Virus record (IMG/VR): IMGVR_UViG_2698536387_000012
Strand: one strand, 5' to 3'
Source of the DNA: a virus
Lineage: Duplodnaviria; Heunggongvirae; Uroviricota; Caudoviricetes
Length of the DNA stretch: 19,577 nt
The notes beneath the pieces were generated by a model that saw only the letters and a program-made list of their open reading frames with translations, did no database searches and was not told the DNA's origin. The position numbers and the translations under genes were made by a program. Numbering within the stretch: position 1 is the first letter of the stretch; the number at the start of each line of letters is the position of its first letter. This document shows, piece by piece, positions 17,710 to 19,577 of the stretch.

Positions 17710-19577
17710 ATGAGTAAAGTCTTTATTTGCGCCGCTATTCCTGACGAACTGGCAACAAGGGAAGAAGGCGCTGTGGCTGTAGCCACAGCCATTGAAGCTG
17801 GCGACGAACGCCGTGCTCGAGCAAAATTTCACTGGCAGTTCCTGGAACATTATCCGGCTGCTCAGGACTGCGCTTATAAATTTATTGTCTGCGAGGATAA
17901 ACCTGGCATACCCCGCCCTGCCCTCGATTCATGGGATGCTGAATATATGCAGGAAAACCGCTGGGATGAGGGGGCTGCTTCCTTTGTCCCGGTTGAGACT
18001 GAATCAGATCCGATGAACGTCGCTTTTGACAAGCTGGCCCCTGAAGTACAGAACGCTGTCATGGTTAAGTTCGACACATGTGAAAACATCACCGTTGATA
18101 TGGTTATTAGCGCACAGGAATTGTTGCAGGAAGACATGGCAACATTCGACGGACATATCGTTGAAGCGTTGATGAAAATGCCAGAAGTTAACGCCATGTA
18201 TCCGGAGCTTAAGTTGCACGCCATTGGGTGGGTTAAGCATAAATGTATTCCTGGTGCTAAATGGCCCGAAATTCAGGCAGAGATGCGCATCTGGAAAAAA
18301 CGTCGCGAAGGTGAACGCAAGGAAACCGGAAAATACACGTCTGTTGTTGATCTCGCCCGCGCCAGAGCCAATCAACAGTACACTGAAAATTCAACAGGAA
18401 AAATCAGCCCGGTCATTGCTGCCATTCATCGCGAATACAAGCAGACATGGAAAACACTGGATGACGAACTGGCCTACGCTCTCTGGCCTGGTGATGTGGA
18501 TGCCGGAAACATTGACGGCAGCATCCATCGCTGGGCAAAAAAAGAAGTTATCGACAACGACCGCGAAGACTGGAAGCGTATCTCGGCATCAATGCGCAAA
18601 CAGCCTGATGCCCTTCGCTACGACCGCCAGACTATTTTTGGCCTTGTCCGTGAGCGTCCGATCGACATTCACAAAGATCCCGTAGCACTGAACAAATATA
18701 CCTGCGAATACCTGACGACAAAGGGCGCGTTTGAGAATGAAGAAACAGACCTGGGCACTGTTGATGTTCTCCAGTCATCAGAAACACAAACTGATGCAGT
18801 GGAAACTGAGGTATCTGATATCCCAAAAAATGAAACCGCGCCGGAAGCTGAACCATCTGTAGAGCGTGAGGGGCCGTTCTATTTCCTCTTCGCAGATAAG
18901 GACGGAGAAAAATACGGTCGCGCAAACAAACTTTCTGGTCTGGATAAGGCAAGCACATACACGGGCTTACCGCAAAATGTAGATACCGCTGAAGATTCAG
19001 AACAACCAGAGCCGATAAAAGTTACCGCTGACGAAGTAAACAAAATTATGCAGGCAGCCAATATCAGCCAGCCTGACGCCGATAAGTTGCTTGCTGCATC
19101 ACGTGGTGAATTTGTTGAAGGGATTAGTGACCCGAATGATCCGAAATGGGTTAAGGGGATCCAGACCCGCGATTCTGTGAACCAGAACCAGCATGAATCG
19201 GAACGGAACTACCAAAAAGCGGAACAAAACAGTCCAAATGCGTTACAAAACGAGCCAGAAACGAAACAGCCTGAACCAGTGGCGCAACAGGAAGTGGAAA
19301 AAGCCTGCACCGCCTGCGGTCAGACCGGCGGCGGCAACTGCCCTGATTGTGGCGCGGTGATGGGCGACGCAACATACCAAGAAACATTCGATGAAGAGTA
19401 TCAGGTTGAAGTTCAGGAAGATGATCCGGAGGAAATGGAAGGCGCTGAACATCCACACAAGGAGAACACTGGCGGCAATCAGCATCACAATAGCGATAAT
19501 GAAACTGGCGAGACGGCAGATCACCCAATTAAGGTGAACGGTCATCACGAAATCACATCCACCAGCAGGACGTGTGA
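17710..19577 (+). CDS. ydfE: YdfE-like protein, 3'-partial (more than 622 aa, open to the window end)
   Basis: Hand translation from ATG at 17710 (GAGGT 9 nt upstream) shows no stop through 19577; acidic, with a CxxC-N9-CPDC zinc-ribbon-like motif near 19306-19350. Not in the ORF track because it has no stop in the window. Confidence 0.7.
   Translation, partial: [622 protein letters not shown]

What the first reader, a model, noticed from the sequence alone, without database searches (positions are those of the whole stretch)
17710..19577. Long, apparently intact ydfE-like ORF at the end of the dicB operon
Hand translation gives more than 622 residues with no stop before the window end, whereas the K-12 copy, as I recall, is truncated by an IS. 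The protein is acidic and has a CxxC-N9-CPDC motif near the window end. Its function is unknown, and it is co-transcribed with the division inhibitors DicF, DicB and YdfD.
Basis: partly seen in the sequence, partly recalled or inferred. Interest (0 to 1): 0.45.

Follow-up and report, generated by a model that had tools for sequence, protein, structure and literature searches.

The report
Intact ydfE: prophage exonuclease gene
The open reading frame is real, but it is the common intact form of the E. coli K-12 pseudogene ydfE: the first three quarters of a prophage gene already annotated in thousands of genomes as an exonuclease, so the finding is ordinary apart from a private 18-codon in-frame deletion.

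Summary
The ORF is confirmed. ATG 17710 opens 622 stop-free codons that run off the window.

The window is a Qin-type lambdoid prophage, 99.9% identical to E. coli O157 strain 493/89. There the same gene is 823 codons, is annotated 'exonuclease', and is followed by xis and int.

The windowed part is non-catalytic. It holds three confidently folded domains (aa 1-95, 105-205, 241-340), acidic disordered linkers, a conserved [21 protein letters not shown] motif and a four-cysteine ribbon. The ribbon is CxxC-N7-CxxC, not N9.

The region is homologous along its length to the N-terminal ~590 residues of RecE, called 'of unknown function' in a 2023 review, and corresponds to the Pfam families YdfE_N and YdfE_C.

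The catalytic DnaQ-like 3'-5' exonuclease domain (PF16473) starts at the window's last, incomplete codon. Relatives carry the same scaffold fused to RecE-type nucleases (then followed by recT) or to non-nuclease domains, so it looks like a portable adaptor.

This copy alone lacks 54 nt, which removes half of a conserved mini-domain. The gene family is already known, its function is untested, and interest is low.

The parts
17014..17065 (+). DicF sRNA gene, upstream member of the same leftward early operon
   Evidence: Rfam RF00039, 76.7 bits against a gathering score of 48, E 1.1e-15
17240..17428 (+). dicB (62 aa cell-division inhibitor)
   Evidence: Same coordinates as the annotated dicB in the 99.9%-identical record NZ_CP038412.1; sequence read
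17425..17616 (+). ydfD (63 aa lysis protein), overlapping dicB by 4 nt
   Evidence: Annotation of the near-identical record
17696..17699 (+). GAGG ribosome-binding site, 10 nt before the start codon
   Evidence: Read directly from the sequence
17710..19577 (+). Partial CDS: codons 1-622 of the intact ydfE-type prophage exonuclease gene, about 805 codons in this allele and 823 in relatives. It runs off the window.
   Evidence: No stop. 99.6% nt identity to the 'exonuclease' CDS WP_000048331.1. PHROG 2082 matched over aa 1-622, E = 0.
17710..17994 (+). Domain 1 (aa 1-95): small alpha/beta, ferredoxin-like fold
18022..18324 (+). Domain 2 (aa 105-205): helical domain. Together with domain 1 it is homologous to the RecE N-terminus.
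   Evidence: pLDDT 94-98. hhalign of aa 4-203 against RecE-type N-termini gives probability 96%, E 4e-9. dN/dS 0.11.
18430..18729 (+). Domain 3 (aa 241-340): helical domain shared with RecE residues about 278-351
   Evidence: pLDDT 94-98. BLASTP and NCBIfam PRK09709 matches. dN/dS 0.17.
18745..18864 (+). Acidic, disordered linker (aa 346-385)
   Evidence: pLDDT below 50. dN/dS 0.79, close to neutral.
18871..18951 (+). Remaining half (beta-hairpin, GPFYFLF...[12 protein letters not shown]) of a conserved mini-domain. The private 54-nt in-frame deletion lies between 18951 and 18952.
   Evidence: Alignment with NZ_CP038412.1. The 40-nt junction is absent from 5,426 complete E. coli genomes. The missing LAAGATEITKEEYFARKN half is conserved in distant relatives. 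In the model of relative P0129 the module folds as beta-beta-alpha-beta-alpha with pLDDT 82-91.
19087..19149 (+). Conserved motif [21 protein letters not shown] (aa 460-480), shared with RecE and many relatives
   Evidence: Alignment A1. Window aa 441-592 are 79% identical to RecE 454-576.
19306..19350 (+). Four-cysteine ribbon [15 protein letters not shown] (CxxC-N7-CxxC)
   Evidence: Conserved in RecE as CNACGQTGGDNCPDC. pLDDT about 80.
19366..19577 (+). Acidic disordered linker leading into the DEDDh exonuclease domain. The last 39 residues ([10 protein letters not shown]...TSTSRTC) are the linker type found only in the DEDDh-fused form.
   Evidence: pLDDT below 50. In the alignment, the RecE-nuclease hybrids diverge after EGAEHPH, whereas the window follows the DEDDh form.

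Best explanation
The ORF is the 5' three quarters of the 'exonuclease' gene of a Qin-type lambdoid prophage. It is the intact counterpart of the K-12 pseudogene ydfE.

The 622 codons in the window encode only the non-catalytic part. This comprises three folded domains (YdfE_N), then a region of short conserved modules and a zinc-ribbon-like CxxC...CxxC motif separated by acidic disordered linkers (YdfE_C). The whole region is homologous to the N-terminal ~590 residues of RecE (exonuclease VIII), whose role is not known.

The catalytic part begins at the window's last, incomplete codon. In near-identical genomes it is a DnaQ-like DEDDh 3'-5' exonuclease domain (PF16473), a relative of phage T4 DexA.

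Inferred mechanism: the gene is expressed from the DicA-repressed early-left promoter together with DicF, DicB, YdfD, Xis and Int when the prophage is derepressed. The N-terminal scaffold would act as a portable adaptor that tethers a DNA-end-processing domain to DNA ends or to a partner protein, and the DEDDh domain would trim 3' ends.

What is shown: gene identity, synteny, domain layout, homology to RecE-N, interchangeable C-terminal domains, and purifying selection on the folded parts. What is inferred: the adaptor role, the substrate and the biological purpose.

The allele in this window lacks 18 residues of one conserved module and may be impaired in that module.
For: Identity and synteny:
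- The 19.6-kb window is 99.9% identical to O157 strain 493/89. The only length difference is 54 nt inside this gene.
- The full gene there is 823 codons, annotated 'exonuclease', and is followed by xis and int.
- The functional phage Tritos has the same order: cI, ydfABC, DicF, dicB, ydfD, exonuclease, xis, int.
- K-12 ydfE equals the first 767 nt.

Catalytic domain:
- PF16473 matches aa 642-813 of the full protein at E 2.4e-67.
- The DEDDh residues align with those of T4 DexA.

Homology to RecE-N:
- NCBIfam PRK09709 matches aa 246-605 at 285 bits.
- BLASTP covers 262-627 against RecE 278-592.
- Window aa 441-592 are 79% identical to RecE 454-576.
- hhalign of aa 4-203 against the RecE N-terminus gives 96% probability, E 4e-9.

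Family names: YdfE_N (PF27430) and YdfE_C (PF27432).

Modularity. The same scaffold is fused to:
- PF16473;
- the RecE-type nuclease PF12684, in a 900-aa protein followed by recT;
- a long PF12684 variant;
- non-nuclease C-terminal domains.

Fold and selection: AlphaFold2 gives pLDDT above 94 for aa 1-200 and 241-340, with disorder in the linkers. dN/dS is 0.11-0.17 in the domains and 0.79 in the linker.

Literature:
- DnaQ-type nucleases are found in lambdoid early-left operons, in Rec modules or more often near int (PMC12315714).
Against: The catalytic domain, the stop codon, xis and int are not in the window. They are inferred from near-identical genomes and from the DEDDh-type linker at the window's end.

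No experiment on any YdfE-type protein was found.

No single-strand annealing protein gene accompanies the DEDDh form, and 3'-5' exonucleases usually inhibit rather than promote recombination (PMC12315714). A recombination role is therefore uncertain.

The private 18-residue deletion may make this particular copy partly defective.
Confidence: 0.8

Rival explanations
1. It is a true RecE (exonuclease VIII): a 5'-3' double-strand DNA exonuclease that works with RecT in recombination. Some phage records annotate it this way.
For: Several phage records label the gene 'exodeoxyribonuclease VIII'. NCBIfam PRK09709 hits it at 285 bits. Natural hybrids exist that carry this same N-terminal region, a RecE nuclease and an adjacent recT.
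Against: The NCBIfam score of 285 is far below the equivalog cut-off of 1269, and the match covers only profile positions 271-600. In the syntenic, 99.6%-identical gene the C-terminus is PF16473 (DEDDh), not PF12684. There xis follows directly and no recT is present. The window's last 39 residues match the DEDDh-type linker and differ from the RecE-type linker.
Confidence: 0.04
2. It is a prophage-encoded defence nuclease. On derepression, or through leaky expression, the DEDDh domain would degrade the DNA of superinfecting phages, for example those with modified cytosines, as reported for the T4 DexA homolog EcD ('HREX'). This would complement DicB-mediated exclusion.
For: The C-terminal domain is homologous to T4 DexA: E 1.6e-6 against PDB 8kel and 28% identity by tblastn. 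An E. coli DexA homolog protects against T4 by digesting 5hmC DNA (PMC12153337). The dicBF operon confers phage resistance through DicB (PMC6832061). PADLOC gives a weak hit to a CRISPR-associated DEDDh model, E 1.7e-5.
Against: EcD is a different, stand-alone protein. Its primers encode MIDTET...TIPETYD. In a simple alignment, the DexA tetramer residue D90 is retained and the proposed 5hmC-recognition residue D169 aligns with alanine. No known defence-system model matches the full protein. The operon is tightly repressed in lysogens according to the literature. This idea also does not explain the 640-residue N-terminal extension.
Confidence: 0.12
3. It is a functional partner of the division and lysis genes: the protein acts with DicF, DicB and YdfD on the host envelope or the division machinery, as the operon context suggested to the first reader.
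For: Same strand, a 93-nt gap after ydfD and no predicted terminator. A K-12 paper describes a promoter upstream of dicB that can transcribe dicB with ydfD and ydfE.
Against: Homologs sit in operons without dicB or ydfD: Rac has kilR, racC, recE and recT, and L006 has KilR, Gam and the homolog. Every domain with an assignable function is a nucleic-acid enzyme. The position next to xis and int is where DnaQ-type nucleases often lie in lambdoid early-left operons.
Confidence: 0.03
4. In this genome the gene is a decaying remnant. The in-frame deletion would be an early step of pseudogenisation in a defective prophage, and the product would no longer be functional.
For: The 54-nt deletion removes the conserved half of a mini-domain and is absent from 5,426 complete genomes. 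The prophage already carries an ISEsa1 transposase remnant and a truncated ydfB. K-12 shows that this gene can be lost without harm.
Against: The deletion is in frame. Apart from the deletion, only 8 substitutions separate this copy from the closest relative. The three large folded domains, the conserved motif and the ribbon are untouched. Folded parts of the gene are under purifying selection between lineages.
Confidence: 0.15

Closest known systems
E. coli K-12 pseudogene ydfE (b1577), Qin prophage
   Same: Same locus and operon position after dicB and ydfD. Gene nt 1-767 match with 6 mismatches. It gives its name to the Pfam families YdfE_N and YdfE_C.
   Different: The K-12 copy is interrupted at about codon 256 by the IS2E remnant, so it lacks domain 3, YdfE_C and the nuclease domain. 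The window copy continues for at least 622 codons.
RefSeq WP_000048331.1 'exonuclease' (823 aa; PHROG 2082), e.g. O157 strain 493/89 and phages Tritos, HannyBb and PhiR42_1
   Same: 99.6% nt identity over the whole windowed part and the same neighbours.
   Different: The window allele lacks 18 codons (VAAGATEITKEEYFARKN) and has 8 substitutions, five of them clustered at 17972-18022.
RecE / exonuclease VIII of the Rac prophage
   Same: The N-terminal ~590 residues are homologous domain by domain, including the conserved motif and the four-cysteine ribbon. The gene has the same place in the early-left operon, before xis and int. The N-terminal region is non-catalytic and of unknown function.
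   Different: The catalytic domain is a DEDDh 3'-5' exonuclease rather than a PD-(D/E)XK 5'-3' exonuclease. There is no adjacent recT. The first ~240 residues are recognisable only by profile comparison. The NCBIfam equivalog cut-off is not reached.
Phage T4 DexA and the E. coli homolog EcD (HREX)
   Same: The domain just beyond the window belongs to the same DnaQ-like group, and the catalytic residues align.
   Different: DexA (227 aa) and EcD are stand-alone enzymes, whereas this protein has a 640-residue N-terminal extension. Identity to DexA is about 28%. DexA residue D169 aligns with alanine here.
DnaQ-type nucleases and 'RecE-2' proteins of lambdoid early-left operons (Genome Res 2025, PMC12315714)
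   Same: That survey describes DnaQ-like 3'-5' nuclease genes in Rec modules or near int, and RecE-related proteins without a recognisable nuclease domain. These match the classes seen here.
   Different: As far as the text read shows, the survey does not connect these proteins to ydfE or to a shared N-terminal scaffold.

Membership tests
YdfE family (Pfam PF27430 YdfE_N + PF27432 YdfE_C) | Sequence match to both family models | tested here: met
   The test is indirect. The local Pfam copy lacks these new models and reports nothing for aa 1-622. The precomputed annotation lists PF27430 and PF27432 for all 120 listed relatives, which are 83-95% identical.
YdfE family (Pfam PF27430 YdfE_N + PF27432 YdfE_C) | Orthology with K-12 ydfE (same locus, near-identical sequence) | tested here: met
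   6 mismatches over 767 nt. Same neighbours: dicB and ydfD upstream, and int and rspB downstream in the full-length relative.
RecE / exodeoxyribonuclease VIII (NCBIfam NF007259, equivalog) | Whole-protein score at or above the curated cut-off of 1269 bits | tested here: not met
   284.6 bits, matching only profile positions 271-600 of 877.
RecE / exodeoxyribonuclease VIII (NCBIfam NF007259, equivalog) | C-terminal PD-(D/E)XK 5'-3' nuclease domain (PF12684) | tested here: not met
   This part lies outside the window. The 99.6%-identical full-length gene has PF16473 and no PF12684. The window's terminal linker is of the DEDDh type.
RecE / exodeoxyribonuclease VIII (NCBIfam NF007259, equivalog) | Adjacent recT annealase gene | tested here: not met
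   In the syntenic relatives xis follows directly. recT follows only in the RecE-nuclease hybrids.
RecE / exodeoxyribonuclease VIII (NCBIfam NF007259, equivalog) | Homologous N-terminal non-catalytic region | tested here: met
   hhalign 96% probability for aa 4-203. BLASTP E 6e-62 for 262-627. 79% identity for aa 441-592.
DnaQ-like DEDDh 3'-5' exonuclease (PF16473, Rv2179c-like) | Presence of the domain with the D-E-D-D-H catalytic residues | not testable with these tools
   The window ends at the domain's first codon. In the near-identical O157 copy the domain matches at E 2.4e-67 and the catalytic columns align with T4 DexA.
dicBF operon (Qin early-left operon) | Same strand, downstream of DicF, dicB and ydfD, with no intervening terminator | tested here: met
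   Co-transcription itself was not measured; it is described for K-12 in PMC11430063.
HREX-type defence exonuclease (EcD-like) | Loss of the DexA tetramer residue D90 together with retention of the 5hmC-recognition residues (Trp, D169) | tested here: inconclusive
   In a three-sequence MAFFT alignment the D90 column is D and the D169 column is A. The alignment is gapped in that region, and the EcD sequence could not be retrieved.

The most novel reading that the evidence does not exclude
The YdfE/RecE N-terminal region may be a universal, portable adaptor of enterobacterial temperate phages. It would deliver interchangeable DNA-end enzymes to one common target, such as a DNA end or a host replication or repair protein. 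The enzymes seen are a 5'-3' RecE nuclease, a 3'-5' DnaQ-like nuclease, a large PD-(D/E)XK nuclease, and a C-terminal domain with a sub-threshold Rad52-like signature. If so, the natural chimeras found here would give a direct way to test what the long-unexplained 600 N-terminal residues of RecE do, including their effect on linear-linear recombination.
Probability: 0.3. Interest if true: 0.55.

Novelty: already known. Interest (0 to 1): 0.22.

Why it matters
As a finding it matters little. An intact ydfE-type gene is the normal state in E. coli: 3,486 of 5,426 complete genomes have a copy covering at least 80% of this stretch, and it is routinely annotated as an exonuclease.

The useful points are clarifications. 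K-12 'ydfE' is the stump of a RecE-like scaffold fused to a DnaQ-like exonuclease. The label 'exodeoxyribonuclease VIII' in some phage records is wrong for this form.

The non-catalytic scaffold is shared by proteins with quite different catalytic ends. This bears on the unresolved role of the RecE N-terminus, which is used in direct-cloning recombineering. No experiment exists for the YdfE-type protein.

Tried and rejected
- **Pfam (local copy) on aa 1-622:** no hit, because the YdfE models are newer than the copy.
- **PDB sequence search with the full protein:** only T4 DexA, for the C-terminal domain.
- **Locating the published EcD gene by its primer sequence:** no match in genome contigs or metagenome contigs, probably because the gene was synthetic.
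- **Looking for the 54-nt deletion elsewhere:** the 40-nt junction has no match in 5,426 complete E. coli genomes. No microhomology longer than 1 nt flanks it.
- **PADLOC:** only a weak generic DEDDh hit.
- **Literature search for YdfE + exonuclease + prophage:** no paper. One earlier search was wasted because 'full-length RecE' also matched 'receptor'.
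Full report
**Observation**

Window 17710-19577 on the + strand translates into 622 sense codons with no stop, and two further bases begin a 623rd codon. ATG 17710 is the first start after an in-frame TAA at 17701-17703, and GAGG lies 10 nt upstream. With this base composition, 622 stop-free codons have a chance probability of about 1.6e-14. The five other frames carry 10-62 stops.

The product is acidic: D+E 118, K+R 67, pI 4.67.

Upstream on the same strand lie DicF (17014-17065; Rfam 76.7 bits), dicB (17240-17428) and ydfD (17425-17616). The consensus scan finds no convincing terminator in the 93-nt gap. It reports only a 5-bp hairpin at 17654-17667.

**Where the window comes from**

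The whole window is 99.9% identical to E. coli O157 strain 493/89 (NZ_CP038412.1). It is a Qin-type lambdoid prophage carrying terminase, the lysis cassette, cold-shock genes, the Q-like antiterminator, relBE, hokD, the dicC/dicA immunity region and the leftward early operon.

In that genome the gene is 2,472 nt (823 codons) and annotated 'exonuclease'. It is followed by an excisionase gene, an integrase gene and the chromosomal rspB. The functional phage Tritos has the same order: cI, ydfABC, DicF, dicB, ydfD, exonuclease, xis, int. The ORF is therefore not the last gene of the operon.

A match to this stretch is present in 4,793 of 5,426 complete E. coli genomes. In 3,486 of them it covers at least 80% of the stretch, with a median of two places per genome that has any.

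**Relation to K-12**

The annotated K-12 pseudogene ydfE (b1577, 921 nt) matches gene positions 1-767 with 6 mismatches. It then diverges completely into the IS2E remnant annotated at that point. K-12 retains only about 255 codons, which is domains 1 and 2 and the very start of domain 3.

**What the protein is**

*Catalytic domain.* The full-length relative carries a Pfam PF16473 (Rv2179c-like, DnaQ-type DEDDh 3'-5' exonuclease) domain at residues 642-813, E 2.4e-67. Its only relative of solved structure is T4 DexA, E 1.6e-6. The catalytic columns align with DexA D7, E9, D119, H186 and D191. The window ends exactly at the first codon of this domain (...TSTSRTC|DHLMIDLET).

*Database annotation of the windowed part.* The 622 windowed residues have no hit in the local Pfam copy. 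The precomputed annotations of the protein database, however, list PF27430 and PF27432 for every close relative. A contig look-up names these families YdfE_N and YdfE_C. PHROG 2082 ('exonuclease') matches end to end.

*Homology to RecE.*
- NCBIfam's RecE equivalog PRK09709 matches residues 246-605 at 285 bits, far below its cut-off of 1269.
- BLASTP against K-12 RecE aligns 262-627 with RecE 278-592.
- Window residues 441-592 are 79% identical to RecE 454-576. This stretch includes the [21 protein letters not shown] motif and the cysteine ribbon.
- A profile-profile comparison also links the first ~200 residues to the RecE N-terminus: hhalign probability 96%, E 4e-9, 192 columns.

The windowed part is thus a full-length homolog of the RecE N-terminal region. 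A 2023 review still calls that region 'of unknown function'. It is dispensable for nuclease activity but enhances linear-linear recombination (PMC11611040).

**Anatomy**

AlphaFold2 was run with a 73-sequence alignment. It gives pLDDT above 94 for residues 1-200 and 241-340, and about 80 for the ribbon. It gives moderate confidence (block means about 63-87) for a beta-hairpin at 391-404 and two helices at 440-464. Residues 346-385, 411-437, 484-528 and 554-622 fall below 50.

The gene was compared with a diverged natural hybrid (locus L007). dN/dS is 0.11-0.17 in the folded domains and 0.79 in the acidic linker. This fits a real protein made of folded modules joined by free linkers.

**Modularity**

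A search of 1.84 billion representative proteins finds only 242 clusters, so the family is narrow. Full-length members share the N-terminal scaffold but end in different domains:
- the DEDDh domain (P0010, P0122, P0127, P0138);
- the RecE-type nuclease PF12684, as in the 900-aa P0001 and P0096, which are 86-94% identical to the window protein over 98% of its length;
- a longer PF12684 form (P0017, P0132, P0213 and others);
- a non-nuclease C-terminal domain, in twelve clusters such as P0129 and P0185;
- other unknown ends.

Gene contexts support this picture. The RecE-nuclease hybrid lies after dicB and ydfD and is followed by recT. P0129 lies after KilR and a Gam-like gene.

In E. coli the swap point lies in the acidic linker after EGAEHPH. 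The window's last 39 residues are of the DEDDh type. Together with the 99.9% synteny, this makes the DEDDh ending very likely for the window's gene.

A stand-alone 190-residue version of the DEDDh domain (59% identical) also exists in a lambdoid phage. A recent survey of lambdoid phages independently noted DnaQ-type nucleases in Rec modules or near int, and 'RecE-2' proteins without a nuclease domain. Their roles are unknown (PMC12315714).

**The private deletion**

Relative to every close relative, the window lacks 54 nt between 18951 and 18952 (18 codons, VAAGATEITKEEYFARKN). It also has 8 substitutions. A 40-nt probe across the junction finds nothing in 5,426 complete genomes.

The lost residues are the conserved second half of a mini-domain (GPFY..G.K.GRANK..GLE.AL..G..EIT.EEY.ARKNGT) that is present in distant relatives. 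In the P0129 model this module is predicted as beta-beta-alpha-beta-alpha with pLDDT 82-91. The deletion is in frame and may be real or an assembly error. If real, that module is probably disabled.

**Mechanism**

The following is shown:
- gene identity;
- operon position;
- a non-catalytic scaffold homologous to RecE-N;
- a DEDDh domain in the syntenic copies;
- interchangeable catalytic ends;
- purifying selection on the folded parts.

The rest is inferred. The scaffold would be an adaptor that positions a DNA-end enzyme, and in this form the enzyme would trim 3' ends after prophage derepression.

The biological purpose is open. A recombination or replication-linked role fits the location and the RecE kinship. 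It is weakened by the absence of an annealase gene and by the general anti-recombination effect of 3'-5' exonucleases. A defence role like that of the DexA homolog EcD (PMC12153337) is possible. It is not supported by the residue markers I could check, and EcD is a different, stand-alone protein. A link to division inhibition has no support beyond co-location.

**Verdict**

The object is an already catalogued gene family whose function has not been tested experimentally. The specific finding, an intact ydfE-like ORF outside K-12, is ordinary. The remaining interest lies in the shared RecE/YdfE scaffold and its natural chimeras.

Noticed in passing
window 18951|18952: A private 54-nt in-frame deletion (18 codons) inside the gene. 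It removes the conserved half of a small module. The junction is absent from 5,426 complete E. coli genomes and has no flanking microhomology beyond 1 nt.
   Followed up: yes
window 17972-18022: Five of the eight substitutions relative to O157 strain 493/89 cluster within 51 nt (protein EES to EGA, and NVTFDK to NVAFDK), in the loop between domains 1 and 2. K-12 has the O157 state. This may be a small recombination patch.
   Followed up: no
window 16136-16753 (+) and 16415-16735 (-): Between ydfA and DicF the ydfB reading frame stays open for 205 codons and matches PHROG 35040 (unknown function) end to end. The near-identical RefSeq record annotates only a truncated ydfB there, and K-12's ydfC is absent. 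An overlapping minus-strand ORF of 106 hydrophobic residues has no PHROG or PADLOC hit. Which ORF, if either, is real was not resolved.
   Followed up: partly
window 12101-13171 (-): A remnant of an ISEsa1 (IS1202-like) transposase gene lies inside the prophage, between ydfW and the DUF977 gene. This is evidence that the prophage is partly decayed.
   Followed up: no
window 3086-3470 and 5980-6372 (-): Two cspA-type thermoregulator leaders (Rfam RF01766) lie upstream of the prophage cold-shock genes cspI and cspB.
   Followed up: no
L006 5650-7986 (relative P0129) and eleven other clusters: Relatives carry the same N-terminal scaffold but a C-terminal domain with the invariant motif KKSLTD..K.LS.LGF.AD. 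It has a beta-beta-beta-alpha predicted core and a sub-threshold Pfam Rad52_Rad22 hit. The same domain occurs alone in Pseudomonas and Vibrio phages, labelled 'exonuclease' or 'DNA repair protein'. It may be an unrecognised annealase, but this is not confirmed.
   Followed up: partly
L007 5001-8505: A natural hybrid at the Rac attachment site: dicB, ydfD, then a gene encoding the YdfE-type N-terminus fused to the RecE nuclease, then recT. It shows recombination within the acidic linker between Qin-type and Rac-type genes.
   Followed up: partly
protein P0197 (703 aa): An in-frame fusion of RecE residues 1 to about 530 to RecT, with the nuclease domain deleted. The break lies inside the cysteine ribbon.
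   Followed up: no
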